Shown in pieces: positions 1 through 12,471 of a stretch of DNA of 64,000 nt; within the stretch, counting starts at the first letter, position 1; every line of letters begins with the position of its first letter. A program made the translations under genes and the position numbers. The DNA is from an uncultured Alphaproteobacteria bacterium. Lineage in GTDB: Bacteria; Pseudomonadota; Alphaproteobacteria; Rhizobiales; Hyphomicrobiaceae. Location: NCBI GenBank assembly GCA_963827545.1, contig CAWHBI010000048.1:43665-107664 (forward strand), in the 5' to 3' direction. A model generated the notes under the pieces. The model saw only the letters and a program-made list of their open reading frames with translations, had not been told where the DNA came from and made no database searches.

Positions 1-456
1 GTCACGCGACGTTTTCACTGTGAGGCAAGGCATCCCAAATCATGGCCGTCGGCCACGCCGCTTGCAGACGACGATCGACGGCTGTAGCTTTATGCCGCCT
101 GCAGAGATTTGGGTGAGCGCAGCGGGGCGTTTTGAGCCCCGAAGTTGTCATGTGCCGGTGATGCGGCCTTGGGGACAGAGGTGCAAGCGAACCGTGGCTT
201 GGCTGCGGTGCTCGTCGTGGCACCGTCGAGGCTTCCTCAATGCGCTGGTGCGCAGCAAGCCAGTGCGCCAGCATCTTGGCCCAAGCGCATTGTCCCTCCG
301 ACAATCGACCCGGCGCATGTTGCGCGCTGGCTGTCAGGACCGCGCCCAGCGATCTGGCCGAGCGATCGTTTCAAGAGTGCATGCAGGCGGAGCAAGTCGC
401 AGCAGGGGCGCTAGCCGGCACGCGGGAGATGGAGCGGCGACGGGAGGTCCAAAGTT

Positions 457-1308
457 GTGAGCAACGCGGCACAGCCCACGCGGAACTGCCACCAGAGTGC
501 GACCCTGCAGGCCCGACGGCTGGCCGCCGTGGCCTCCATGACGGTCATGATGCTCGCTTTAATGGCTGCGGATGCCGCGCACGAGCAAGCAACGGCGGAG
601 CCACCCACCATAAGCATTGCCGCCACGATCCTCGCCGAGTCGCCTGGGCAGGTTGCCCTTCCCATTCGCGTCGGGCCTGCTTCGTCGATACCCCGCAACA
701 GCTTCCTGACGGTGCGCGGGCTCCCGTCGATAGCCGCATTGTCGGAGGGGTATGCGATTGCGCCCGGCTCCTGGGCTGTTCCGCTCAGTGCGCTGCCAGA
801 CCTCAAGGTCAAACTTCCCGTCGGCTTGACGGGCAGAGTGGATATCGTGGTCGCCCTGGTCGCAAAGGACGGGGCGGTATTGTTCGAAGCGAAGTCGGCA
901 CTCGTGCTTGGCGCGGTCGCGCCGGCAAGCGCACAAGCTCAATCCGATCCGCCGGCCCCCAAGGTCGGGGCTGGAGGCCCGCCGCTGGCATTGCCGAGCG
1001 AGGCATCGCGGTCTGTCATCCTTCCCCAGGATCGCGAGCGCGCGCTGAAGTTTTTGAAGAAGGGCGATGAAGAGATGGCCGCGGGCCTGGTTACTCCGGC
1101 CAGGTTGCTCTATGAGCGCGCCGCAGAACTGGGTCTTGCACAAGCCGCGATGGCGCTGGCTGCCACCTACGATGCCGCCGAGCTGACGCGCCCCCATTTG
1201 CGAGGCGTCCACCCGGATGCCAACGAGGCCAGGCGTTGGTACGAGCGTGCGCGGCAACTCGGCGCCGGGGACGCGGACCAGCGCTTGCAGCGGCTGGGCG
1301 CAAAGTAA
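457..1308 (+). CDS. Sel1-like repeat (TPR-type) protein with N-terminal hydrophobic signal/anchor
   Basis: 283-aa ORF. The N-terminus has a hydrophobic stretch (AAVASMTVMMLALMAADAA). The C-terminus has Sel1-like repeats (ARLLYERAAELGLAQAAMALAATY..., EARRWYERARQLGAGDA). Confidence 0.6.
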   Translation: MSNAAQPTRNCHQSATLQARRLAAVASMTVMMLALMAADAAHEQATAEPPTISIAATILAESPGQVALPIRVGPASSIPRNSFLTVRGLPSIAALSEGYAIAPGSWAVPLSALPDLKVKLPVGLTGRVDIVVALVAKDGAVLFEAKSALVLGAVAPASAQAQSDPPAPKVGAGGPPLALPSEASRSVILPQDRERALKFLKKGDEEMAAGLVTPARLLYERAAELGLAQAAMALAATYDAAELTRPHLRGVHPDANEARRWYERARQLGAGDADQRLQRLGAK

Positions 1309-1483
1309 TGCTGGCAGCCCGCGGTATGGCCTGCCTGAACTGCGTGTTGCGCTTCGGGCACGGCTCGCCTCGCGCGTCGGGATCATGGCAGGACCGCCGC
1401 ATTCTTCTGCACGCGTTCTGATACGGTTTTGGCGTGCGGTTATAGACGTCTTGGCGGTCAAGACTGCGCAGGCGACCGGCATT

Positions 1484-3361
1484 ATGAACGAAAAGCAATT
1501 GCGTAGAGCCATCGAGCAGTTGCTCGAGGCACAGCCTGACAATCAGCGCCTGCGCGACAACCTGGAAGGGCTGTGCCGCGACCCGCTGTTCCCCGGTCTG
1601 ACATGGTACTGGGGCCCGCGGCTCCATGCCCGCAGCAAGGCGGTGTTCCGCCCCTTCATTCTCAATCACTTTTCGGAGTGGATCACATCGAGCAACCGCT
1701 GGATCAGGGTAGCGTGGGCCGACCACGCCAACGATCTGGAGGCCTGGCTGCTGGCGGCGCGTGCCGGGCGGGACGGTGCCCTGATCCGGCGGCTGCAGCG
1801 CTGGAAGTACGCGGCCCGCAAGGGCTGGGGCATCGACCTGGACCGCTGGAACGCGGCACTGGTAGAGGCTTATCGGGCCGCACCCACGCCAGCTGCGCGC
1901 GCGATCGTTCTCGACGAGTTCGACGACTGGTTTCAGCTCGACGAGCCCACCGCGATCCGGCTTTACGACACCGATCGCAGCTCGGCGGCCTTCATTCTAA
2001 AGCATCTCCCCGTCTCGTTCTGGAGCCAGGAAAAGCGGGCGATGTGGGAGAAGCTCGGCGCGCTTGCCCGCGCCCACGGCGACGAAAAGCTGTTCTTCGC
2101 CCTCTACCGCAAGCTGATGCCGGTGAGCCGCTGGGAAACGGAGGTGCTGACCCTTGCCGACGCGGTTGTCGAGCAGGCCGAGCTCAATCGCGTGCTGGAG
2201 AACCGCCATCTGGAGGGCTACGGCATCGAGCGGGGCGGCACGGTCCTGAAGCTGCTGGAGCGGCGCGGCCGGGACGTGATGCCCTACGTGCGCGCCAAGC
2301 TCGAGGAAACGATCGGCGGCTGGGGTAAGGACAAGGAGGCGGCGTCCTTTATCGATCTTGCCGAGCGCCGGGGCTGGTGGGACCTCTGGAGCGCTGCGGC
2401 GCGGACCGCCACCTATCCGAAGCTGTTCAACGAGTGCGTCCGCAAGCTGATGCACAACCAATCGCTCGGCGATGATGTGCGCCGCGAGCGTCTGACGGCG
2501 CTGGCTGGCGTCTCGCGCGAGTGGAGCTGGCCGGGCCTCGGGCTGGCCCGCATCCACGCCCTGGACGATGATCTTGCCGGCCTCGTCTATGCCCGCTATC
2601 CGGATCTGATCCGCGGCCCCTTCCGCGCCAACGTCACTCCGACGTGGTGGCACGGCTATCCAAATCTCGTCCAGGCGGCGCAGGTGGCCCATGACGACGA
2701 TCTCCTCGACACGCTGGCCAGCCGGTACGCGACGCGGATTTCCTGGAAGCGTATGTGGAATCGCGACGAGAAGCCCGATGCGGAGGACAAGACGGCATCC
2801 GAGATTGCCGCCTACTACCAGGCCATCCGCGATCGCGACGCTGTGGAGTTCTCCCGCCGCGCCTCCAATGTCCTGACGCGCATTCCCGCCTATGCGACCT
2901 TCAACCAGCATCAGCTCTTGCGCACCAACGACTTGGCGCGGCTGCTGTTCGTGCGCTCGCTCGACCAGTATCTCGCGGTGCCGCTGGCCGTGCAGGACCT
3001 GGTGGAAGGCTCCAACATCCACGTCATGATGCTGGCCTACCGCGTTCTCGCGCTCCCCGATGCGCGGGCCCGCGCGCTGGCAGCCGACAACGTCGACATT
3101 CTGCTCGGCACGCTGCTGCGGCCGCTGCATCGCAAGACCCGGATGGCGGCCTTCGAGGCGCTCGCCAATGCCGCGCGGCACAGCGAGGCGGTCGCCCGGC
3201 GCATCCACGCCCGGGCCCGCGAAGCCTTGAAGCTGCCCGACAAGAAGTATCCCAAGGCCGAGCTGATCGGCCTCATCGGCTGCACTCTCGCCGCGCATCC
3301 TGGCCTGGCGACCGAGGCCGAGCGGCCGGTTGTCTACCGGCACGCGAGGGCCGCCGCATGA
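1484..3361 (+). CDS. Large alpha-helical repeat (ARM/HEAT-like) protein, first gene of the RT module
   Basis: Long ORF in frame with the 1217..3361 track entry. I chose the ATG at 1484 (MNEKQLRRAIEQLL...), but the RBS is weak and the start is uncertain (alternative ATG at 1385). The C-terminal third reads as helical repeats (LLGTLLRPLHRKTRMAAFEALANAARHSEAVARRIHARAREAL). Its stop TGA (3359-3361) overlaps the next ATG (ATGA). Confidence 0.6.
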   Translation: MNEKQLRRAIEQLLEAQPDNQRLRDNLEGLCRDPLFPGLTWYWGPRLHARSKAVFRPFILNHFSEWITSSNRWIRVAWADHANDLEAWLLAARAGRDGALIRRLQRWKYAARKGWGIDLDRWNAALVEAYRAAPTPAARAIVLDEFDDWFQLDEPTAIRLYDTDRSSAAFILKHLPVSFWSQEKRAMWEKLGALARAHGDEKLFFALYRKLMPVSRWETEVLTLADAVVEQAELNRVLENRHLEGYGIERGGTVLKLLERRGRDVMPYVRAKLEETIGGWGKDKEAASFIDLAERRGWWDLWSAAARTATYPKLFNECVRKLMHNQSLGDDVRRERLTALAGVSREWSWPGLGLARIHALDDDLAGLVYARYPDLIRGPFRANVTPTWWHGYPNLVQAAQVAHDDDLLDTLASRYATRISWKRMWNRDEKPDAEDKTASEIAAYYQAIRDRDAVEFSRRASNVLTRIPAYATFNQHQLLRTNDLARLLFVRSLDQYLAVPLAVQDLVEGSNIHVMMLAYRVLALPDARARALAADNVDILLGTLLRPLHRKTRMAAFEALANAARHSEAVARRIHARAREALKLPDKKYPKAELIGLIGCTLAAHPGLATEAERPVVYRHARAAA

Positions 3362-4956
3362 TCGTGCTCGTCGACTATGCCTCGCCCTCGGTGCTCGAAT
3401 CGACGCGCGATGCGACGACGGTCGGCCTGTCGACCAACCTGCGCCGGCGCGTGCGCTTCCATGGCCTCGTCCGCCAGCACGGCTTCATCCTGCGCATTGC
3501 GCTGCGGGCGCTGGGCGAGGCGATCTGGTCGAACGACACGTGGATTGCCCAGTCCGACCTGCTCGATCCCGTCATCACCGTGCATCGCGACCGCATCTTC
3601 TTCGAGGCGTTCAGCCAGGACCAGTCCACATACGTGTCGCTGATCGTCGACCCGGCCGTGTTCGAGCCCATGGGCGAGGTGGTGACCGGCACCACCAACA
3701 TCGACTTCACGGCTTGGCTGTGGGGTGCGCTCGGCGAGATGCGCACCAGCCGCTCGACCACCTTCCGCATCGGCCCTGAGGGCGTGGAGGTTCGCACATC
3801 GAGCGCCGGCGGCCGCTTCGAGAAGAAGGTCGAGCTGCCGGAAACGTGGGTGCGCGGCTTCCTGCAGGTGCAGGCCGCCATGGGCATGCCGGGCACCCGC
3901 ATCGCCGTGAAGCCGATCGATCTCTTGTCCGCGGTCCGCTTCCTGCGCCACTCCAAGGCCAAGGTTTCTCCACGCGGCATCCGCTACGAGTTCGAGCCGG
4001 GACAGGATGCCCGCCTCGTGCTCGAGCCGTGGGAGCGCGTCGTTCCCCTCGAGGGCGCGGAGCACAACTACACCGAGCCCAAGACCACCCGCGTGTGGGG
4101 GCGCCGCCGCCTCAAGCTGATCGAGGGCCTGCTGCCGTTCGCCGAAGGCGTCGACATCTATCTGAAGGGCCGGGCGCTGCCGAGCTTCTATGCCGTAAAG
4201 CTGCCGGGCATGACCTTCCTGCTCGGGCTCACCGGCTGGTCCGGCAGCGGCTTTACGGGCACCGGCGGCTTCGACCTGCTCGCTGAAGCCGCAGCCGCCA
4301 ACGACAACCTGCTCGAGCCGGCCCTCGCCCTGCTGCGCGAGCGCCAGCACGCCTCCATCGAGGACGTCGCCACCGCTCTGCACATCGATAAAGTTGCAGC
4401 ATCTCGCGTGCTCGTGCGGCTGTGCCGGCAGGGCCGCACCATGTTCGATGTCGAGGCGCGGCGCTACCGCCACCGCGAGCTGTTCGAGATGCCGGCCGAC
4501 GAGGCGACATACTTTCCCCCCGACCGGCGGCAGGAGCTGGCCGCGGCACTGATCGCCGAGAACAAGGTGCGCGTCGCGAGCTGCGCCGCAGAAGAGACCA
4601 AGAAGGTGCGCTCCTTCAAGGACCCCAACTCGGGCGAGGCCAAGCAGAAGATCGTGCGCGAGATCACCTATCGCGACTGGCGCATCATTGGCGCGGCCGG
4701 GGACCAGGATCCGGTCGAGATCGTGGTCAACGACACGGGCCGTATCATCTTCGGCCGCTGCACCTGCCCGCATTTCGCCGAGCACCTGATGAACCAGGGG
4801 CCATGCGAGCACATGCTCGCGCTGTTCAAGGCCAGCGAGGAGCAGCGCGCCGATCGCCCCTCGAGCTCACCGGTCGACAGCCCAACGACCGCCACGACAC
4901 GCAAGCAGCCGTCACGCTGGGAGGTTGACGGCGCCGAAGCAGGGGCGTCAGAATGA
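3358..4956 (+). CDS. Winged-helix + SWIM zinc-finger domain protein, second gene of the RT module
   Basis: ATG at 3358 overlaps the upstream stop (ATGA coupling). The C-terminus carries a SWIM CxCxnCxH signature (CTCPHFAEHLMNQGPCEHMLALF). This is preceded by a winged-helix-like segment (IEDVATALHIDKVAASRVLVRLCRQGRTMF). Confidence 0.8.
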   Translation: MIVLVDYASPSVLESTRDATTVGLSTNLRRRVRFHGLVRQHGFILRIALRALGEAIWSNDTWIAQSDLLDPVITVHRDRIFFEAFSQDQSTYVSLIVDPAVFEPMGEVVTGTTNIDFTAWLWGALGEMRTSRSTTFRIGPEGVEVRTSSAGGRFEKKVELPETWVRGFLQVQAAMGMPGTRIAVKPIDLLSAVRFLRHSKAKVSPRGIRYEFEPGQDARLVLEPWERVVPLEGAEHNYTEPKTTRVWGRRRLKLIEGLLPFAEGVDIYLKGRALPSFYAVKLPGMTFLLGLTGWSGSGFTGTGGFDLLAEAAAANDNLLEPALALLRERQHASIEDVATALHIDKVAASRVLVRLCRQGRTMFDVEARRYRHRELFEMPADEATYFPPDRRQELAAALIAENKVRVASCAAEETKKVRSFKDPNSGEAKQKIVREITYRDWRIIGAAGDQDPVEIVVNDTGRIIFGRCTCPHFAEHLMNQGPCEHMLALFKASEEQRADRPSSSPVDSPTTATTRKQPSRWEVDGAEAGASE

Positions 4957-4965
4957 GTTCTCTTT

Positions 4966-5132
4966 GCGCAGTTCCCGGGTCTGGCAGGACCTTCCAGCTT
5001 CCTATGCCACGGTGCTTCGCCGTGGCGGCTTCCTGTCCCCATCACATCGCCACGGTTCCCCACGTACGAAACGCGGGGAGGCCACGGGTCCAAAGCCTTG
5101 TTGGTGGTTGGCCGGCCGGCCCGGGACTGCGC
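4966..5132 (+). ncRNA. Candidate retron msr-msd non-coding RNA, bounded by a1/a2-like inverted repeats
   Basis: GCGCAGTTCCCGGG (4966-4979) pairs with CCCGGGACTGCGC (5120-5132), giving 13 bp with one bulged T. The enclosed ~140 nt contain hairpins at 5006-5026 (7-bp stem GCCACGG/CCGTGGC) and 5057-5079. The heptamer GCCACGG occurs three times (5006, 5049, 5081). The element sits between the SWIM-gene stop (4956) and the RT start. It is structural inference only. Confidence 0.35.
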
Positions 5133-5163
5133 CCTTGCCCGAAACGGCAGGATGGGTGAGGCG

Positions 5164-6510
5164 ATGCCCCCAACGCCGCTCCTGGTCTACCTCGCGGTCG
5201 GCTTCCTCGTGTTCATCCTGGCGCGCGCGCTCGTGCGCTGGGTGCGGCGGCGCATTGTGCTCAGGAAATGGGCAAAGGCTCCGCAGCGCGATGTGTCCGG
5301 GTTGGCTGATACCGGTGAAGCCGCCTTCAAGCGTGAGGTCGTCAGGACTGGCGGTCCGCTCAAGCCGGGGCACCGCCGGCTGGTGCTGCGCGACAACCGT
5401 CTGCTGCCCAAGCCGCCGCCGGACCCCAACCAGCGCCGCTGGCCGCCGCCGCCCAAGGTCAAGTACCTGACCGAGCGCGAGGCCGACCGGCTGTTTGGCC
5501 CGTCCCTGCGCACGCGCAACCGCGACGTGATGGACCTGGCAACCGACGAGGCCCAGCTGCAGCGCTACGGCCTGCCGGCGTGGAAGACGGAGCAGGACAT
5601 CGCCGCGGCCTTGTCGCTGTCCATCGGCCAGTTGCGGCACATGAGCCAGCACCGCCAGCGCGAGACTGTGCCGCATTACGTCACGTTTGCGATCCCGAAA
5701 CGATCGGGGGGCGAGCGCCTGATCTACGCGCCGAAGCGCCGCCTCAAGACAGTCCTCCGCGCGCTCGATCGATTGCTCGTGTCGAAGCTGCCGAAGAGCG
5801 AGCAGGCGCACGGCTTCGTCAAGGGCCGCTCCATTGCGACCAATGCCGCCCCGCATGTGGGCAAGGCCGTGGTGCTGCACTTCGACATCAAGGACTGTTT
5901 CCCGACCATCCACTTCGGCCGGGTTCGCGGGCTGCTGATCGCGCTCGGATACAGCTATCCCGTGGCAGCATCGCTTGCGGTCCTCATGACGGAGGCGCCG
6001 CGCCAGCCCGTGGCCGCGGAAGGGAAGCTCTATCATGTGCCGACGGGGCCCCGCGTCTGCGTGCAAGGCGCGCCGACAAGCCCAGGGCTGTGCAACGCCA
6101 TCTTGCTGCGCCTCGACCATCGCCTCTCGGGGCTGGCCCGCAAGCACGGCTTCGCCTACACGCGCTATGCCGACGACCTGACTTTCTCGGGCAACGACAC
6201 GGCGAAGATCGCCAAGCTCTTGAAGCTCGTGCCCACCATCGTCGCCGCCGAGGGCTTCGCCGTGAACGCGGACAAGACCCGAATTTTGCGCGCTGGCCGG
6301 CGCCAGGCCATCACCGGCGTGGTCGTGAACAAGGCCATGGGCCTGTCCCGCAAGGAGCGACGCAAGCTGCGCGCTGCGCTGCATCGCCAGAAGACCACTG
6401 GCGAGGCCGGCGCGGGCGAGCGCCTTCGCCTGCACGGCAAGCTGGCCTACCTGTTCATGCTCAACCGCGCACAAGCCATGGCCTTGGGCTGGCAACGGCC
6501 GTCGAGGTGA
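5164..6510 (+). CDS. Retron-type reverse transcriptase with N-terminal transmembrane helix and a ~170-aa extension
   Basis: RT motifs: GFVKGRSIATNAAPH (NAxxH), VLHFDIKDCFPTI, VCVQGAPTSPGLCN, YADD (6166-6177), ADKTRIL and RQAITGVVVN (retron-like VTG region). The N-terminus LLVYLAVGFLVFILARALVRWV is a predicted TM helix. The start is ambiguous (TTG 5098, ATG 5152, ATG 5164). Confidence 0.85.
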   Translation: MPPTPLLVYLAVGFLVFILARALVRWVRRRIVLRKWAKAPQRDVSGLADTGEAAFKREVVRTGGPLKPGHRRLVLRDNRLLPKPPPDPNQRRWPPPPKVKYLTEREADRLFGPSLRTRNRDVMDLATDEAQLQRYGLPAWKTEQDIAAALSLSIGQLRHMSQHRQRETVPHYVTFAIPKRSGGERLIYAPKRRLKTVLRALDRLLVSKLPKSEQAHGFVKGRSIATNAAPHVGKAVVLHFDIKDCFPTIHFGRVRGLLIALGYSYPVAASLAVLMTEAPRQPVAAEGKLYHVPTGPRVCVQGAPTSPGLCNAILLRLDHRLSGLARKHGFAYTRYADDLTFSGNDTAKIAKLLKLVPTIVAAEGFAVNADKTRILRAGRRQAITGVVVNKAMGLSRKERRKLRAALHRQKTTGEAGAGERLRLHGKLAYLFMLNRAQAMALGWQRPSR

Positions 6511-6582
6511 GGGCACCGGCGCCGCGCTCGCCACCCCCTTTGCAAGCTGGCAGACCTCGACGCGGGGTTCCCGCAAGGCATA

Positions 6583-7248
6583 ATGCGCAGGATGGGACTC
6601 GACGGACCGAGGGTTGAGCCGCGCGGCGTGACGCCCACGGCGCTGGTGGTGCTGCTGCACGGCTACGGTGCCAACGGCGACGACCTGATTGCCCTGAGCG
6701 ACGACTGGCGTCGCTGGCTGCCGTACACTGCGTTCGTTGCACCCAATGCGCCGCAAACCATTCCCGGCGCGTACGGCGGCCTGCAGTGGTTCCCGCTGAC
6801 GCTGCGCGATCCGGGCGAATACTGGCGCGGCGTGACAGCAGCCCAGCCGGCACTCGACCAGTTTCTCGACGCGGAGCTGGCCCGTTATCGTCTCCCAGCC
6901 CATCGCCTCGTGCTGGCCGGCTTCAGCCAAGGCACCATGATGGCGCTGCATGTTGGGCTGAGGCGCGCCGCGGCAGCGGCCGGCATCGTCGGCTTTTCGG
7001 GTCTGTTGGCCGGGCCCGAGCATCTCGCGGAAATCAAGGTGCGCCCCCCGATCCTGCTGATCCATGGCGAGGCCGACGATCTGATCCCGGTCGACGCGCT
7101 GCACATTGCGCGGGAGCCATTGGCGAAGGCGGGACTGCTGGTGGAATGGCATGTGCGGCCCGGCTTGGGCCACGGGATTGACCCTGCAGCTCAGCGAATG
7201 GCCGGGCATTTCATTGGCGCCGCGCTCAAAGGCTTGCAGGGTGCTTGA
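6583..7248 (+). CDS. Phospholipase/carboxylesterase-family alpha/beta hydrolase
   Basis: Motifs LLHGYGANGDDLIAL, the nucleophile elbow GFSQGTMMAL and IHGEADDLIP are typical of the family. An alternative ATG lies at 6592. Confidence 0.8.
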   Translation: MRRMGLDGPRVEPRGVTPTALVVLLHGYGANGDDLIALSDDWRRWLPYTAFVAPNAPQTIPGAYGGLQWFPLTLRDPGEYWRGVTAAQPALDQFLDAELARYRLPAHRLVLAGFSQGTMMALHVGLRRAAAAAGIVGFSGLLAGPEHLAEIKVRPPILLIHGEADDLIPVDALHIAREPLAKAGLLVEWHVRPGLGHGIDPAAQRMAGHFIGAALKGLQGA

Positions 7249-7381
7249 GATCAATCGAATTTCCCTTGTCTGCCCGATGCCTAGCCGCGGCTTCACATCG
7301 CAGACACACGCGGCTAGTATGACGCCGCTTTGAAAGGCCCCAGGCATTGATTCGCCCGTAGGAAGCGAGCAGAAGAGTATC

Positions 7382-7942
7382 GTGAACGCCTACGCTGCAA
7401 CCCCTGAGAGCTTCCCGGCACTCGTGCTCAACGCCGACTTCCGACCCCTCAGCTATTACCCGCTGTCGCTGTGGAGCTGGCAGGAATCCGTAAAGGCCGT
7501 CTTCCTCGAGCGAGTGAACATCGTCTCCGAGTACGACCGCTTCGTGCGCAGCCCCTCTTTCGAGATGCGCCTCCCCAGCGTGGTGTCCCTGAAGACTTAC
7601 GTGAAGCCGGCTCTCTATCCCGCTTTCACGCGGTTCAATGTGTTCCTGCGCGATCGCTTCACTTGCCAGTATTGCGGGTCAAAGGACGACTTGACGTTCG
7701 ATCATCTGCTTCCGCGCTCGCGCGGGGGGCAGACACGCTGGGACAACGTCGTAGCGGCCTGCGCCCCGTGCAATCTGCGCAAGGGCGGCAACCTGCCAGA
7801 CCACGGTGGCATGCGCCCGCGGCAACTGCCGTACCGACCGACCGTGTTCGAGTTGCATCGCAACGGGCGGCTCTTCCCGCCCAACTACCTGCACCAGAGC
7901 TGGCTCGACTATCTCTACTGGGATACCGAACTGGAGCCGTAA
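7382..7942 (+). CDS. HNH endonuclease family protein
   Basis: CQYCGSKDDLTFDHLLPRSRGGQTRWDNVVAACAPCNLRKG matches the HNH/zinc-finger signature. GTG start. Confidence 0.8.
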   Translation: MNAYAATPESFPALVLNADFRPLSYYPLSLWSWQESVKAVFLERVNIVSEYDRFVRSPSFEMRLPSVVSLKTYVKPALYPAFTRFNVFLRDRFTCQYCGSKDDLTFDHLLPRSRGGQTRWDNVVAACAPCNLRKGGNLPDHGGMRPRQLPYRPTVFELHRNGRLFPPNYLHQSWLDYLYWDTELEP

Positions 7943-8016
7943 GGTATTGGTGCGCAAGTGCTTCTGGCCTCCAGCTGCTCGGAGGCCAAAATACGTTTGT
8001 GCTGGTGGGAGTGCGT

Positions 8017-8226
8017 TCAGGCTGCCTTGCGTTGCTGTGGGGTGCACAGGGCCTGGGCAATGCGATCGACGGCCGTACCCCAGCCGGCGCCCTCAGCGCC
8101 ATCCAATCCGAATGCGCTCAGCGCCCCGGCGGGTGTGCCGCCATCGCGGAAGATCCGGGCACAGGCAGCGCGTGCGTAACCAATCGCCTGCTCCCATTGC
8201 ACAGCATTGATATGGCGGGGGAACAT
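8017..8226 (-). CDS. Small hypothetical protein (69 aa)
   Basis: Internal ATG of ORF 8017..8352, preceded by a good RBS (GGAGAAGGGAAACAC-ATG). I recognise no family. Confidence 0.4.
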   Translation of the reverse strand: MFPRHINAVQWEQAIGYARAACARIFRDGGTPAGALSAFGLDGAEGAGWGTAVDRIAQALCTPQQRKAA

Positions 8227-9176
8227 GTGTTTCCCTTCTCCGTTTCTGTCTGCGCCTGACGCTACGCACCGATGCCGAAGCGAGGGTGGCAGGCGCATCC
8301 AACGCAACGGCTTCCCGACGCAAAACCTTGACTCGTGAAGCCTGTTCGACATGCCTGTCGCGCGTTAGATGCGCCTGCCGCTCGGACGGCCAACGGGCCA
8401 ACGACGCTGGCCATCCTAAGCCTTTACCTGCGACGCCCCTCCCGACTTGGGGCCGTTTCGAATTTGGGCCGGCACTGGAAGTGAACACAACACCCGGCCA
8501 ACCACCTCACTCAACGCATGCCACTCTGCTTCTTCCGACTCGACCATGAACTTTGCCTGGGTTGGCCCTCCGCGAGGGCGGCGAGCCGCCCGGCGACACG
8601 CGCGCACTTTTTCGCCTCGGCGGCCCGCCGCAATGCCTCGAATGCGGGGGCAAGAGCTACTCTGGGACACGCACGCAACTGAGACTCTGACGCGAACACG
8701 GCACGCACGCCACGCAACGGACCGACGCCAACATCACGCCACTCACGCACACCGGCTACTCGAACACTATTTTTCTGAACGCTACTCACTGGGACCCCAC
8801 TTGACCGGAACCGCGAATCATCCCTGGAGAACGCGCGACGACCGGATCCAATTGCACCACCAACTGTGGATAACTCAGATCGTATGCAACCCGCAGGGTA
8901 ATCGAGGGCAGGCGGTGTCGAGACTCCACTGGAAGGCATATCGAAACTCCGCGCACCCTGCCGTTAACCAACTCTTAACTGATCGTTCTCTTTGCGTTCC
9001 CGGCTGAGGGGCAATTAACAGCCAGACCTAGTCGCTTTTGGGGCACAGAAGGGGCGAGAAGACGGTAGGGCCCGGTTTTCCAAAAGTAATTTTCTTGACA
9101 GAAGGCTTTCGTGACTCGCGCGTCTGCAAAGTGATTCGTACCTGTTGTGTGTGTCGCTGGTGTGTAAATTTTGCGA

Positions 9177-9809
9177 ATGCCGGATTTCCGAGTCACTGGC
9201 CCCACCAATGCCGCCGCCCGCTTTCTGTGCGCTCACGGAGCCGGCGCGGCCATGGACAGCCCCTTTCTGGAGAACTTTGCGGGCCTCTTGGCCACGCGGG
9301 GCATCGCCACCCTGCGTTTCGAGTTCTCCTACATGGCTGCGCGCCGGCAGGGGGGCTCGAGGAAGCCGCCGCCCAGGGCCGAACGGCTCACAGACGAGTA
9401 TCGCGCGGCCGTCGCTGCCCTGCCGAAGGGCGCTCCCCTCCTGATCGGCGGCAAGTCGATGGGCGGACGTGTGGCGAGCCTCGTTGCCGACGAGCTCCAC
9501 GCCCAGGGGCACATTGCCGGCCTCGTCTGCCTCGGCTACCCATTCCACCCGCCCAAGAAGCCCGATCAGCTGCGCACCGGGCACCTGGTGGAGTTGGCCT
9601 GTCCGGCCCTGATCGTCCAGGGCGAGCGCGACCCGTTCGGCTCGCGCAGCGAGGTCGAGGCCCTGCGCCTATCCCCGTCGATCCGCTTTCATTGGGTCGG
9701 CGACGGCGACCATGACCTGGGCCCTCGCGGCGGCTCCGGCTTCACTCGCAAGGGCAACCTCGCGGGCGCGGCCGATGCGATCGCTGCCTTCGCTGTCAGT
9801 TCAAAGTGA
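9177..9809 (+). CDS. Alpha/beta-fold family hydrolase (COG3571-like)
   Basis: FLCAHGAGAAMDSPF, GGKSMGGRVAS (nucleophile elbow) and IVQGERDPFG. The first in-frame ATG is at 9177. Confidence 0.75.
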   Translation: MPDFRVTGPTNAAARFLCAHGAGAAMDSPFLENFAGLLATRGIATLRFEFSYMAARRQGGSRKPPPRAERLTDEYRAAVAALPKGAPLLIGGKSMGGRVASLVADELHAQGHIAGLVCLGYPFHPPKKPDQLRTGHLVELACPALIVQGERDPFGSRSEVEALRLSPSIRFHWVGDGDHDLGPRGGSGFTRKGNLAGAADAIAAFAVSSK

Positions 9810-9832
9810 GACGAACAGACGACCCAGAAAGT

Positions 9833-11035
9833 CTAAGCTCGCACCGCGGCCGCCTGCGGCACCGGCAGCCGCTGCGGCAGCAGCAGGGCCGCACACAGGA
9901 TGACCACAGCCGAGACCGCCAGCACGCGGAACAGCGCGTCGAAGCCCCAGTTCTCGTAGACGAACGCGATCAGAGGCAAGGTCGCCGCCAGCACGGTGAA
10001 GCTTACCACGTAGCGCACGCCGTAGATGCGCGCCCGCCATTCGCCCTCTGCCAGGCGCCCGATCATATAGTCGTTGATGGGGATTTGCCCGAAGGCTGCC
10101 AGCATGAAGGCCATGGCGCAAAGCAGCGCGGCCCAGTCGAGAAGGCCTGGCATGATCGCGAAGAACACAACCTGGATGGCCGCCGCGCCAACGAAGACGG
10201 TGCGTGGTCCGAGCCGGTCCAGCAGGTGCCCTACGATGAGCTGACCCAGGGAAGCCAGTGCGAACACCATGAACGCCAGCCCCCCGAGTGCCGTCGCCGA
10301 CATCGCAATGCCGCCGAGGCGCTCGTCGAACACCTTGGGCAGAGCAAACGTGGTCGACTGGAACACCACGCTGGACACCGCCGTGGTCAGGAACACGATC
10401 ATGGAGACGCGAAGCAGCAGCGCCTTGAGGTCAGCCGGTAGCACCTTCGCCACGGCCTTGTTGCGCGTCGGAGGTTTCGGCAGAGTGATCTCGGGCCACA
10501 TGATGGTGGTGTAGGCGATGCCGATCAGGATCGACACGACGCCGGGCACGACGAAGGCGGCGCGCCAGCCGCCGTGATCGATGAAGTAGCCGGTGATCAG
10601 CGCCGCGCTGGCGACGCCCAGGTTCCCCCACACGCCGTTCACCGCAATGCGCATGCCGGTGTTCTTCCATTTCTCCACCACAATGGCGAGACCGACCGGG
10701 TGATAGATGGCAGCGAACACGCCGACCACGAACAGGCCGATGCCGAGCTCGAGCGGGGTGCGCGCAAAGGAGGTGGCGATCGAGGCGAGGCCGATGCCGA
10801 CGAAGAACACGCTCATCATGCCCTCGCGGCTCCACTTGTCGGCGAGCCAGCCGGCGGGCAGCGCGAACACGCCGAAGGCGAAGAAGCCGGGCGTCGCAAA
10901 CTTGAGGAGGTCGGCGTAGCCAAGTCCCCACTCGCGATGCAAGGCGAGCGCGGCCACTGTGGCAAAGATCAGCGTGAACAGATGATCGAGGAAGTGCCCT
11001 ATGTTGAGCAGCAGGAAGTGCAGGCGCTCTCGCAT
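9833..11035 (-). CDS. MFS transporter
   Basis: Multi-TM protein with MFS-like loops (LADKWSREG). The ATG at 11035 is preceded by AAGGAGAG. Confidence 0.8.
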   Translation of the reverse strand: MRERLHFLLLNIGHFLDHLFTLIFATVAALALHREWGLGYADLLKFATPGFFAFGVFALPAGWLADKWSREGMMSVFFVGIGLASIATSFARTPLELGIGLFVVGVFAAIYHPVGLAIVVEKWKNTGMRIAVNGVWGNLGVASAALITGYFIDHGGWRAAFVVPGVVSILIGIAYTTIMWPEITLPKPPTRNKAVAKVLPADLKALLLRVSMIVFLTTAVSSVVFQSTTFALPKVFDERLGGIAMSATALGGLAFMVFALASLGQLIVGHLLDRLGPRTVFVGAAAIQVVFFAIMPGLLDWAALLCAMAFMLAAFGQIPINDYMIGRLAEGEWRARIYGVRYVVSFTVLAATLPLIAFVYENWGFDALFRVLAVSAVVILCAALLLPQRLPVPQAAAVRA

Positions 11036-11215
11036 GAGGGGGCTCTCCTTGGCCGGGCATTGCCCGTCCGTGTGTCGCAACCTAGCGCCTTTGCACCGCC
11101 CGGAAAACCGAGGGGATCGCATGGCTGAATTGATGGACGGTGCGCGTGAAGGCGCCTGCAAACGTGCTACAGGAGACAGGTGCGCATAGCATCTCGGATC
11201 GGAGAAACCTCAAAA

Positions 11216-11599
11216 ATGACCGCCGGCGTGATCGATCGGCTCGCGGAGCTGGCCAACGACAATGCGTGGCTCGTGCACCGCGGCCGCTTCCTCGATGTGA
11301 CGTTTCTGATCGAGGTCGGCACCGCGCCCTACCTGGTGCGCATCCACCGCGGCCGCATCGAAGCGATCGACAAAGGCCCGCTCGTGATGCCGCGCTGGAC
11401 ATTTGCTCTGAGGGCTTCTGAAGAGGCGTGGGCGACCTTCTGGAAGGCTCTGCCCCCGCCCGGCTTCCACGATCTGATCGCCATGATCAAGGTGCGCGCG
11501 CTGCACCTCGAAGGCGACCAGCACCCCTTCATGGCCAACCTGCGCTACTTCAAGGAGCTGCTGGCGCTACCACGCGCCGAGGCCGGAGCTGTCGGATGA
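11216..11599 (+). CDS. SCP2 sterol-binding-like domain protein
   Basis: The ATG at 11216 has RBS GGAGAA. The sequence (FLIEVGTAPYLVRIHRGRIEAIDKG...IKVRALHLEGDQHPFMANLRYF) resembles SCP2-type domains. Its stop overlaps the next start (ATGA). Confidence 0.6.
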   Translation: MTAGVIDRLAELANDNAWLVHRGRFLDVTFLIEVGTAPYLVRIHRGRIEAIDKGPLVMPRWTFALRASEEAWATFWKALPPPGFHDLIAMIKVRALHLEGDQHPFMANLRYFKELLALPRAEAGAVG

Positions 11600-12471
11600 G
11601 CGTGGCCGGCAAGCCCGAGTTCGAGCCCGTCGTCGGCCGCTATCTGCAACTCGCGATTGGCGGCAAGCCGCACCGCGTCTATGTCGAGGAAGCGGGCGAA
11701 GGCGTCCCACTGCTGTGCCTTCACACCGCCGGCGCCGACAGCCGGCAATACCGCGCGCTGCTCAACGACCGCGAGATCCTCGAGCGCTTCCGCGTCATCG
11801 CCTTCGATCTGCCCTGGCATGGCAAGTCGTCGCCGCCCGCTGGTTGGCAGAACGGCGAGTACAGGCTCACCGCGCGCGCCTATGTCGACACCATCATGGC
11901 GGTCGTCGATGCGCTGGACCTCGACAGGCCCGCAGTCATCGGCTGCTCCATCGGCGGGCGCGTGGTCTTGCACTTGGCACTGGAGCATGCGCGCCGGTTC
12001 CGCGCGCTGATCGGCCTGGAATCCGGCGCTCACGCCGATCCCTACTACGACCTCGCGTGGCTGCACCGTCCCGATGTGCACGGGGGCGAGGTGTGCGGGG
12101 CTCTGGTCTCGGGCCTCATCGCGCCGACCGCGCCAGAGGCGGACCGATGGGAGACCATCTGGCACTACATGCAGGGCGGCCCCGGCGTCTTCAAGGGCGA
12201 CCTGCACTACTACACGTCCGATGGCGATGTCCGCGAGCGGGTCGCTCAGATCGATACGCGCACGTGCCCACTCTTCCTGCTGACCGGCGAGTACGACTAC
12301 TCGTGCACGCCCGATGACACCCGCGACTTGGCCCGCCGCATCGACGGAGCGCAGGTCACCATCATGGAAGGGCTCGGTCACTTCCCAATCAGCGAGGACC
12401 CGCGGCGCTTCCTTGGGTTTCTGAGGCCTGTGCTGGCCGGAATTCTGGAGCGAGGCGCAAAAAAGTCCTGA
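11596..12471 (+). CDS. Alpha/beta hydrolase
   Basis: LLCLHTAGADSRQY, GCSIGGRVVLHLA (nucleophile elbow) and a C-terminal GHFPISEDP. Confidence 0.8.
   Translation: MSVAGKPEFEPVVGRYLQLAIGGKPHRVYVEEAGEGVPLLCLHTAGADSRQYRALLNDREILERFRVIAFDLPWHGKSSPPAGWQNGEYRLTARAYVDTIMAVVDALDLDRPAVIGCSIGGRVVLHLALEHARRFRALIGLESGAHADPYYDLAWLHRPDVHGGEVCGALVSGLIAPTAPEADRWETIWHYMQGGPGVFKGDLHYYTSDGDVRERVAQIDTRTCPLFLLTGEYDYSCTPDDTRDLARRIDGAQVTIMEGLGHFPISEDPRRFLGFLRPVLAGILERGAKKS

What the first reader, a model, noticed from the sequence alone, without database searches (positions are those of the whole stretch)
4966..5132. Long-range inverted repeat and nested hairpins between the SWIM gene and the RT: candidate msr-msd with a1/a2 arms
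GCGCAGTTCCCGGG (4966-4979) pairs with CCCGGGACTGCGC (5120-5132). That gives 13 Watson-Crick pairs with one bulged T, extendable by G-U and C-G pairs.

The arms start 10 nt after the SWIM stop codon and end about 20-30 nt before the candidate RT start codons. This is the position and geometry of retron a1/a2 repeats.

The enclosed ~140 nt contain a clean hairpin at 5006-5026 (GCCACGG-TGCTTCG-CCGTGGC) and an imperfect one at 5057-5079. The heptamer GCCACGG occurs three times in direct orientation (5006, 5049, 5081) and once inverted (5020), so alternative pairings are possible.

The first unpaired G residues just 3' of the left arm (around 4983-4984) would be candidate branching guanosines.
Basis: seen in the sequence. 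Interest (0 to 1): 0.7.

Follow-up and report, generated by a model that had tools for sequence, protein, structure and literature searches.

The report
Retron template RNA gene, Mx65-like
The inverted repeat and hairpins between the SWIM gene and the reverse transcriptase are the template RNA gene (msr-msd) of a type XIII retron closely related to the classic Myxococcus retron Mx65, so this is a correct but unsurprising identification of a new member of a known family.

Summary

The flanking genes match PADLOC's SWIM_XIII (7.9e-142) and RT_XIII (1.6e-128) models, so this is a type XIII retron. The element occurs once, between SWIM and RT, in 21 loci whose RTs are 53-100% identical.

The repeat is the outer part of a longer stem of about 27 bp (4966-4996 / 5105-5132). 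The arm sequences diverge, but 91% of cells stay paired, and all 19 pairs of the outer helix show changes on both sides. This is how a1/a2 arms behave. The hairpins at 5006-5026 and 5054-5083 also covary.

The 114-nt core aligns throughout with the published Mx65 msr-msd (66% identity). The RT is 61% identical to the Mx65 RT.

Two corrections:
- **Priming G:** it is almost certainly G4997, in an invariant CAGC at the inner end of the stem. G4983/4984 are paired and not conserved.
- **Alternative heptamer pairings:** covariation contradicts them.

A conserved TTGAC box inside the end of the SWIM gene probably drives transcription. By homology I predict an msDNA of about 67 nt copied from 5103 down to about 5037.

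This is a new member of a known kind, of modest interest.

The parts
1217..3361 (+). Upstream partner gene of the retron. By position it is the accessory protein that Mestre 2020 calls HEAT/ARM-like. The true start is probably further in, around 1367-1484.
   Evidence: The ORF is listed. It is conserved at 73-90% amino-acid identity directly upstream of SWIM in L002-L006, and as a 629-661 aa gene in L091-L096. Its stop overlaps the SWIM start (ATGA at 3358-3361). It has no Pfam or PADLOC hit, so the HEAT/ARM assignment rests on position only.
3358..4956 (+). SWIM zinc-finger protein, the type XIII retron 'primary' associated protein.
   Evidence: PADLOC SWIM_XIII, E = 7.9e-142. Pfam SWIM, E = 3e-05. 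Start ATG at 3358 and stop TGA at 4954-4956.
4925..4954 (+). Promoter-like site inside the 3' end of the SWIM gene: TTGACG, 18 nt, CAGAAT. The predicted transcript start is around 4960.
   Evidence: It is the only promoter-like site in 4500-5400, where 0.1 is expected. A TTGAC box at a similar distance upstream of the stem is present in almost all 21 loci, including those whose SWIM C-terminal coding sequence differs. Function is inferred.
4966..4996 (+). 5' arm of the terminal stem (a2).
   Evidence: Helices 1 and 2 of the consensus structure. All 19 pairs of helix 1 change on both sides, and 91% of cells are paired. Arm sequence identity falls to 17-40% in distant members.
4997..4997 (+). 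Predicted priming (branching) guanosine, in CAGC 4995-4998.
   Evidence: A4996-G4997-C4998 are invariant in all 21 loci and in Mx65. The G is unpaired at the inner end of the stem, opposite the invariant G5104. The Ec86 sequence has the same arrangement (UUA-G ... G-UAA). Simon 2019 reports CAGC in Mx162 and Sa163, GAGC in Mx65 and TAGC in most retrons. Not shown experimentally.
5006..5026 (+). msr hairpin: 9 bp (5006-5014 / 5018-5026) with loop CUU.
   Evidence: 96.8% of cells are paired and 3 pairs change on both sides (helix 3). It is also present in Mx65.
5037..5103 (+). Predicted msd template region, read by the RT from 5103 towards 5037. It contains hairpins 5054-5083 and 5084-5101. The predicted msDNA is about 67 nt: 5'-CAACAAGGCTTTGGACCCGTGGCCTCCCCGCGTTTCGTACGTGGGGAACCGTGGCGATGTGATGGGG.
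   Evidence: Hairpin 5054-5083 has 96.5% of cells paired and 3 pairs with changes on both sides. Hairpin 5084-5101 shows only G-C/G-U changes. The boundaries come from mapping Mx65 onto the window, using the 65-nt DNA length given by the name Mx65 and the 49-nt RNA length recalled from the primary literature. They are inferred, to within a few nucleotides.
5105..5132 (+). 3' arm of the terminal stem (a1).
   Evidence: It is the partner of 4966-4996. G5104 and T5105 are invariant.
5164..6510 (+). Retron reverse transcriptase with an N-terminal extension of about 170 aa.
   Evidence: PADLOC RT_XIII, E = 1.6e-128. Pfam RVT_1. 61% identical to the Mx65 RT and 44% to the Mx162 RT. It carries NAAPH (the retron NAxxH motif), ITG and YADD. 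ATG 5164 is preferred over 5152 because L011 keeps only the equivalent of 5164.

Best explanation
Region 4961-5135 (+ strand) is most likely the msr-msd non-coding RNA gene of a type XIII retron (partner gene, SWIM, ncRNA, RT). The host is a relative of the Hyphomicrobiaceae. The element is homologous to the msr-msd of Myxococcus xanthus retron Mx65 (Retron-Mxa2).

Proposed mechanism:

1. A promoter embedded in the end of the SWIM gene (TTGACG 4925 / CAGAAT 4949) starts a transcript near 4960 that runs through the ncRNA into the RT gene. This step is inferred.
2. The RNA ends pair into a stem of about 27 bp (4966-4996 with 5105-5132). Comparative analysis shows this.
3. The stem presents the unpaired G4997, in an invariant CAGC, opposite the invariant G5104. 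The conservation is shown. The chemistry is inferred.
4. The RT recognises the conserved msr hairpin 5006-5026. It uses the 2'-OH of G4997 to prime DNA synthesis on G5103 and copies leftwards through hairpins 5084-5101 and 5054-5083 to about 5037. This is inferred from Mx65 and Ec86.
5. RNase H removes the copied template. This leaves a branched msDNA of about 67 nt of DNA joined to about 50 nt of RNA, held by a short RNA-DNA hybrid at the 3' ends. This is inferred.
6. The msDNA-RT complex presumably works with the SWIM and upstream partner proteins. What that complex does is unknown for any type XIII retron in the literature I could search.
For: - **Gene context:** SWIM_XIII 7.9e-142 and RT_XIII 1.6e-128. 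The RT has the retron motifs NAxxH, (V/I)TG and YADD (Simon 2019).
- **Conserved position:** a covariance model finds exactly one copy per locus, always between SWIM and RT on the RT strand, in 21 loci (69.8-211.7 bits). The downstream neighbours differ between loci.
- **Covariation:** 92.1% of cells pair, against 38-47% for slid controls. 29 of 56 pairs have changes on both sides. 0 of 500 shuffles reach the observed values.
- **Independent check:** a MAFFT plus RNAalifold run on 14 sequences recovers the outer stem and both hairpins, with 14 compensated pairs.
- **Arms versus core:** the arms lose sequence identity (down to 17-40%) while the core keeps 66-98%.
- **Strand:** the many G-U pairs (for example 59/65 UG in 20 sequences and 135/141 UG in 20) would be A-C mismatches on the other strand. 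Minus-strand hits score only 13-18 bits.
- **Priming site:** the AGC and the G5104-T5105 opposite it are invariant. The geometry matches Ec86 and the published (T/C/G)AGC rule.
- **Homology to Mx65:** 87 of 131 aligned positions are identical to the published Mx65 msr-msd, including both hairpins and CGCCA(C/G)GG. The RT is 61% identical to the Mx65 RT over 393 aa, E = 1e-139.
- **Promoter:** a promoter-like site lies just upstream and its TTGAC box is conserved.
- **Fold:** z = -3.8 for 4961-5135.
Against: - No experimental data exist for this locus: no RNA ends, no msDNA.
- Rfam has no matching family, so membership rests on my own alignment.
- The Mx65 sequence was read from a machine-read supplementary PDF and probably has small errors.
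- The msd part does not form the single long hairpin typical of many retrons. The predicted msDNA does not fold better than shuffles (z = -0.5). Mx65 is the same in this respect.
- The inner helix 4988-4998 / 5103-5113 is less regular (87.5% paired, with gaps in distant members).
- The small helix 5027-5029 / 5049-5051 has no covariation.
- The alignment used for the main pair counts was fitted to the model's structure, which favours that structure.
- The upstream partner protein matched no HEAT/ARM model.
Confidence: 0.9

Rival explanations
1. This is a retron msr-msd with short 13-14 bp a1/a2 arms (4966-4979 / 5120-5132), and the branching G is at 4983-4984, just 3' of the left arm.
For: The 13-pair repeat is the longest uninterrupted part of the stem. 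Many E. coli retrons have arms of 12-13 nt, for example the Ec86 sequence.
Against: G4983 and G4984 pair with C5117 and C5116. Both pairs change on both sides across the family (28/163: GC 14, AU 2, CG 2; 29/162: GC 13, GU 3, AU 2, CG 1), so these positions are neither unpaired nor conserved as G. The only invariant G in an AGC context is G4997, and it aligns with the GAGC of Mx65. From memory, myxobacterial retrons have long arms.
Confidence: 0.05
2. A structured RNA that belongs to the retron but is not reverse transcribed under normal conditions. Examples would be a 5' leader controlling RT translation, or a template used only on infection, as reported for type VI retrons.
For: The RT start lies 32 nt after the stem. 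The core sequence is unusually conserved for a retron template. [quoted passage not shown]
Against: The homologous Mx65 element gives a 65-nt msDNA in M. xanthus, as the name records (Simon 2019). Zhao 2021 lists it among the retrons used in their msDNA assay. The priming-site geometry is fully conserved.
Confidence: 0.04
3. Not an RNA gene. Instead it is a small protein-coding ORF (for example 4953-5159, 68 aa), a transcription terminator for the SWIM gene, or a repeat or mobile-element remnant.
For: ORFs of 60-180 aa overlap the region in several frames. One relative has a 56-aa gene called over it on the minus strand. Open frames are common in this GC-rich DNA.
Against: Variable columns show no three-base periodicity (23/19/25 by phase). 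Two members differ in length by 1 or 3 nt. Substitutions are compensatory across stems. There is no T-run or terminator-like site. There is only one copy in the window.
Confidence: 0.01

Closest known systems
Retron-Mxa2 (Mx65) of Myxococcus xanthus
   Same: The layout of the ncRNA is the same: terminal stem, (C/G)AGC priming site, the 9-bp msr hairpin with its GGUG-UU(U)-CGCC top, CGCCA(C/G)GG, the CCC..CGU..ACG..GGG hairpin and GGGUCCAA.GCCU. Aligned identity is 66%. The RT is 61% identical and shares the N-terminal extension. The expected msDNA is about the same size.
   Different: The host is an alphaproteobacterium of the Hyphomicrobiaceae group, not a myxobacterium. The terminal stem is longer and more regular here (about 27 bp, against an imperfect stem of about 14 bp in the Mx65 sequence as printed). 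The RT starts with a hydrophobic segment that the Mx65 RT lacks. The motif is CAGC rather than GAGC, and two extra nucleotides fall within the predicted msd template. No msDNA has been demonstrated here.
Retron-Mxa1 (Mx162) and Retron-Sau1 (Sa163)
   Same: They belong to the same retron type (XIII) and RT clade, with the N-terminal extension (Mestre 2020; Simon 2019). The priming motif is the same, CAGC. A long a1/a2 stem is also shared (from memory). An msr hairpin with a similar top is visible in the Mx162 sequence.
   Different: RT identity is only 44%. The Mx162 and Sa163 msd is about 160 nt and forms a long hairpin. The models built here give at best weak matches in loci whose RTs are 41-49% identical to the window's RT, which is the distance range of Mx162.
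Retron-Eco1 (Ec86), the reference retron
   Same: The priming-site geometry is the same. The stem ends in an A-U pair, followed by an unpaired G opposite a G, with the first templated base just 5' of that second G (Ec86 sequence; window positions 4996-4997 and 5103-5105). The order promoter, msr, msd, RT on one strand is also the same.
   Different: It is a different retron type, and the ncRNA and RT sequences are unrelated beyond the shared RT fold. Its arms are 12 bp. Its msd forms a single long hairpin. It lacks the SWIM and partner genes.

Membership tests
Retron msr-msd ncRNA | [quoted passage not shown] | tested here: met
   It ends 32 nt before the RT start at 5164. The RT matches RT_XIII at 1.6e-128 and other retron RT models. 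The same arrangement is found in 21 loci.
Retron msr-msd ncRNA | The 5' and 3' ends pair with each other (a2/a1 inverted repeats) and enclose the msr and msd. | tested here: met
   4966-4996 pairs with 5105-5132. All 19 pairs of the outer helix change on both sides, and 91% of cells are paired. An independent alignment gives the same result.
Retron msr-msd ncRNA | A conserved priming guanosine at the inner end of the 5' arm, usually within (T/C/G)AGC. | tested here: met
   CAGC at 4995-4998. The AGC is invariant in 21 loci and in Mx65. The rule is stated in Simon 2019.
Retron msr-msd ncRNA | One to three short hairpins in the msr part. | tested here: met
   Hairpin 5006-5026 has 96.8% of cells paired and 3 compensated pairs.
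Retron msr-msd ncRNA | A long, stable stem-loop in the msd part. | tested here: inconclusive
   There are two moderate hairpins (5054-5083, 11 bp; 5084-5101, 6 bp) rather than one long one. The predicted msDNA folds no better than shuffles. The homologous Mx65 has the same layout.
Retron msr-msd ncRNA | Production of branched msDNA with a 2'-5' link to the priming G. | not testable with these tools
   This needs nucleic-acid extraction or expression, debranching and sequencing.
Type XIII retron (Mestre et al. 2020) | RT of clade 10 with an N-terminal extension. | tested here: met
   The RT_XIII model is the best match, ahead of all other retron RT models. The RT is 61% identical to the Mx65 RT and 44% to the Mx162 RT. 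The RT domain starts about 175 aa into the protein.
Type XIII retron (Mestre et al. 2020) | A linked gene for a protein with a winged helix and a C-terminal SWIM zinc finger. | tested here: met
   SWIM_XIII, E = 7.9e-142. Pfam SWIM at residues 459-492, with a faint MarR-type winged-helix hint at 323-359.
Type XIII retron (Mestre et al. 2020) | A HEAT/ARM-like repeat protein encoded upstream of the SWIM gene (in many, but not all, members). | tested here: inconclusive
   A conserved gene of about 630-714 aa is always there, overlapping the SWIM start. It matches no Pfam or PADLOC model. Its fold was not predicted.
Mx65-type msr-msd | Sequence homology to the Mx65 msr-msd across msr and msd. | tested here: met
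   It aligns end to end, with 87 of 131 positions identical for the window and up to 71% for L013/L014. The Mx65 sequence comes from Zhao 2021, Supplemental Table 1, which is machine-read text.

The most novel reading that the evidence does not exclude
In this alphaproteobacterial branch of the Mx65 family the msDNA may be more than a passive scaffold. The core keeps a fixed 114-nt length and 66-98% sequence identity while the RT falls to 53% identity and the arms diverge freely. The RT has also gained an N-terminal membrane-anchor-like segment. This would fit a sequence-specific msDNA ligand or guide for the SWIM and partner proteins, working at the membrane, possibly in a vertically inherited cellular role rather than classical abortive-infection defence.
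Probability: 0.15. Interest if true: 0.6.

Novelty: new member of a known kind. Interest (0 to 1): 0.3.

Why it matters
The result gives a precise, testable map of a retron template RNA: promoter, arms, priming G, msr hairpin, and the start and approximate end of the msd. The retron type concerned (XIII, SWIM plus partner protein) has no described biological function in the literature I could search, even though it includes the first retrons ever discovered.

The 21-locus alignment and the link to Mx65 show which nucleotides are constrained. That is useful for engineering this compact retron, with its msDNA of about 67 nt, and for asking what the conserved msDNA sequence is recognised by.

As a discovery it is modest. 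Standard defence-system annotation would already call the retron, and the ncRNA belongs to a known family.

Tried and rejected
- **Rfam:** a scan of 1-12000 at E <= 1 found nothing. No curated family covers this RNA.
- **Coding test by open frames:** uninformative, because most frames are open in this GC-rich DNA. I replaced it with a periodicity and indel test.
- **Upstream partner protein:** no hit in Pfam, PADLOC or NCBIfam, even at E <= 10 for Pfam and PADLOC. I did not predict its structure because it is peripheral to the finding.
- **Broader model:** a second covariance model built from 21 sequences gave only weak matches (19-37 bits) in type XIII loci whose RTs are 41-49% identical. This ncRNA family is therefore confined to the Mx65-like clade (RT at least 53% identical). 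More distant type XIII retrons have different or longer templates.
- **Myxococcus genomic DNA:** I could not fetch it directly. I used printed sequences from Zhao 2021 instead.
- **Primary literature on Mx65:** the 1990 PNAS paper is not held. The 49-nt RNA length and the branch at the fourth residue are therefore from memory.
- **Type XIII function:** literature searches found no functional study.
- **Second msr-msd in the window:** for example upstream of the partner gene. The model searches found none.

Full report
**1. The observation**

- GCGCAGTTCCCGGG at 4966-4979 is complementary to CCCGGGACTGCGC at 5120-5132, with T4972 bulged (I1/I9).
- The SWIM gene's stop codon is TGA at 4954-4956. 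The two candidate RT starts are ATG 5152 and ATG 5164.
- The hairpin 5006-5012 / 5020-5026 is exact (I10).
- GCCACGG occurs at 5006, 5049 and 5081, and its complement at 5020.

Taken alone, the long-range repeat is only borderline evidence. 2.3% of 300 dinucleotide-preserving shuffles of 4900-5250 hold an equally good repeat. The fold of 4950-5170 has z = -2.0. The fold of the probable transcript 4961-5135 is stronger, with z = -3.8 and 0 of 200 shuffles as stable.

**2. Gene context**

- The gene ending at 4956 matches PADLOC's SWIM_XIII model at 7.9e-142.
- The gene starting at 5152/5164 matches RT_XIII at 1.6e-128, ahead of every other retron RT model.
- Pfam finds a SWIM finger and an RVT_1 domain.
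- The RT carries NAAPH, ITG and YADD. These correspond to the retron-specific regions and catalytic core described by Simon et al. 2019 (PMC6868368).
- Mestre et al. 2020 (PMC7736814) define type XIII as this RT clade plus a SWIM protein, usually preceded by a HEAT/ARM-like protein. They place Mx162, Mx65, Sa163 and Ne144 in it.
- A 714-aa ORF (1217-3361) precedes SWIM and overlaps its start by ATGA. It is conserved in relatives but matches no model.
- Rfam has nothing in this region.

**3. Related loci**

- A scan of one genome per species found ten loci. Six are from Hyphomicrobiaceae or related Alphaproteobacteria, with RTs 76-87% identical.
- A metagenome scan added 80 loci.
- Six further loci were fetched for RT homologues that are 62-71% identical.
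- In the close and intermediate loci the order partner gene, SWIM, gap of about 210 nt, RT is constant. The genes downstream of the RT differ: YCII, methionyl-tRNA synthetase, a helicase, a transposase-related gene. The conserved unit is therefore the three genes plus the gap.

**4. The gap holds a conserved structured RNA**

- The first alignment of seven loci showed an almost invariant core and variable flanks.
- A covariance model built from it finds exactly one strong match per locus. The match is always between SWIM and RT on the RT strand, in 21 loci whose RTs are 53-100% identical to the window's (69.8-211.7 bits).
- On the 21-sequence alignment, 92.1% of cells form standard pairs, against 38-47% when the 3' partners are slid by 1-3 columns. 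29 of 56 pairs have changes on both sides. None of 500 column shuffles reaches any observed measure.
- That alignment was fitted to the model, which favours its structure. I therefore checked an independent MAFFT plus RNAalifold run on 14 sequences. It recovers the outer stem and the hairpins 5006-5026 and 5054-5083, with 14 compensated pairs.
- Many pairs are G-U and would be A-C mismatches on the other strand. Minus-strand scores are only 13-18 bits. The RNA is therefore read from the + strand.

**5. Anatomy in window coordinates**

| Feature | Coordinates | Support |
|---|---|---|
| Helix 1 | 4965-4985 with 5115-5133 | All 19 pairs change on both sides |
| Helix 2 | 4988-4998 with 5103-5113 | Less regular: 4 compensated pairs, 87.5% paired |
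| Hairpin | 5006-5014 / 5018-5026 | 3 compensated pairs |
| Three-pair helix | 5027-5029 / 5049-5051 | No covariation; doubtful |
| Hairpin | 5054-5065 / 5071-5083 | 3 compensated pairs |
| Hairpin | 5084-5089 / 5095-5101 | Only G-C/G-U changes |

- Arm sequence identity to the window falls to 17-40% in distant members, while the core 4994-5107 keeps 66-98%. The arms are constrained in structure only, and the core in sequence.
- The core is exactly 114 nt in 19 of 21 loci.
- Variable core columns show no codon periodicity (23/19/25), which argues against a coding region.

**6. The priming site**

- Only 47 positions are invariant across the 21 loci. They include A4996-G4997-C4998 and, opposite them, G5104-T5105.
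- A4996 pairs with T5105 in all 21 sequences (pair 42/151). G4997 is unpaired and faces G5104.
- Simon et al. 2019 state that the priming guanosine lies at, or just beyond, the inner end of the 5' arm. It sits within TAGC in most retrons, CAGC in Mx162 and Sa163, and GAGC in Mx65.
- The window reads CAGC at 4995-4998, and some relatives read TAGC.
- The Ec86 sequence printed by Zhao et al. 2021 shows the same geometry...CCCUUA-G-CG... opposite ...GAC-G-UAAGGG....
- G4997 is therefore the likely branching G.

**7. Homology to Mx65**

- Supplemental Table 1 of Zhao et al. 2021 (bioRxiv 10.1101/2021.03.29.437260) prints the msr-msd and RT sequences of Mx65 and Mx162.
- The Mx65 msr-msd aligns with the family from the AGC to the 3' arm. 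87 of 131 positions are identical for the window, and up to 71% for L013/L014.
- The window's RT is 61% identical to the Mx65 RT over 393 residues (E = 1e-139) and 44% identical to the Mx162 RT.
- The printed sequences are machine-read and contain small errors, but the homology is not in doubt.
- A broader model gives only weak matches in type XIII loci with RTs 41-49% identical. This ncRNA family is therefore the Mx65-like branch of type XIII.

**8. Predicted products (inferred)**

- Mapping Mx65 onto the window places the first templated base at G5103.
- The name Mx65 gives a DNA length of 65 nt. With two extra bases in the window, the end of synthesis maps to about 5037, which gives an msDNA of about 67 nt.
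- The Mx65 RNA length of 49 nt, and the branch at its fourth residue, are from my memory of the primary papers, which are not held. They would put the mature RNA at about 4994-5045, overlapping the DNA's 3' end by 8-9 nt.
- The predicted msDNA has one 9-bp hairpin and is not unusually stable.

**9. Transcription**

- The only promoter-like site in 4500-5400 is TTGACG (4925-4930), 18 nt, CAGAAT (4949-4954), where 0.1 is expected. This would start the RNA about 5 nt before the stem.
- A TTGAC box at a similar distance is present in nearly all 21 loci, including those in which the SWIM C-terminus is a different, acidic sequence. Its conservation is therefore not just a by-product of coding.
- No terminator-like site follows the stem, which is consistent with read-through into the RT gene.
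- ATG 5164 is the likelier RT start, because L011 keeps only that ATG.

**10. Alternative pairings**

The 3' arm of hairpin 5006-5026 changes together with its own 5' arm: A-U becomes G-C or C-G at 5009/5023, and C-G becomes U-A at 5008/5024. The copies at 5049 and 5081 do not follow these changes. The repeated heptamer reflects conserved sequence, not a structural switch.

**11. Verdict**

- The finding is right in substance. This is the msr-msd of a type XIII, Mx65-like retron in an alphaproteobacterium.
- The corrections are a longer a1/a2 stem, a different priming G (4997), and no support for alternative heptamer pairings.
- It is a new member of a known kind.
- The function of type XIII retrons remains undescribed in the searchable literature. 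That, together with the unusually conserved core and the hydrophobic RT N-terminus, is the only part with wider interest.

Noticed in passing
window 5164-5260 (RT residues about 6-30); also L091-L096 at 3001-3100: The RT begins with a hydrophobic stretch of about 19 aa (Kyte-Doolittle mean 1.9-2.8) followed by an Arg/Lys cluster. This looks like a membrane anchor. It is conserved in the alphaproteobacterial relatives but absent from the Mx65 RT (0.06).
   Followed up: partly
window 4925-4954; equivalent positions in 21 loci: A TTGAC box followed by an A/T-rich hexamer lies inside the last codons of the SWIM gene. It stays at a similar distance from the ncRNA stem even where the SWIM C-terminal coding sequence differs. 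It is probably the retron ncRNA/RT promoter.
   Followed up: partly
window 4994-5107: The segment enclosed by the terminal stem is exactly 114 nt in 19 of 21 loci and 66-98% identical in sequence, although the RTs fall to 53% identity. This is unusually strict for a retron template.
   Followed up: partly
window 1217-3361: The conserved gene upstream of SWIM matches no Pfam, NCBIfam or PADLOC model. Homologues align only from residue 51-90 onward, so the annotated ATG at 1217 may be too far upstream.
   Followed up: partly
L004 5750-5790, and L004/L006 SWIM and RT genes: L004 has a tandem duplication (gatcttcagcgaccaag, twice) at the end of the SWIM gene, and frameshifts in SWIM and RT. L006 has a frameshift in the RT. 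Either these are assembly errors in the genomes or the copies are decaying. The ncRNA is intact in both.
   Followed up: no
L092 2802-2972 (minus strand): A 56-aa gene is called on the opposite strand directly over the ncRNA. It is probably a spurious call caused by the open GC-rich frames.
   Followed up: no
window 6583-7248: An Abhydrolase_2 carboxylesterase gene follows the RT. Relatives have unrelated genes at this position, so it is not part of the retron.
   Followed up: yes
L007, L008 (Thiothrix): In these more distant type XIII loci the SWIM gene lies about 4-5 kb downstream of the RT instead of upstream. The gene order is therefore not fixed across the type. Mestre 2020 also notes this.
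   Followed up: no
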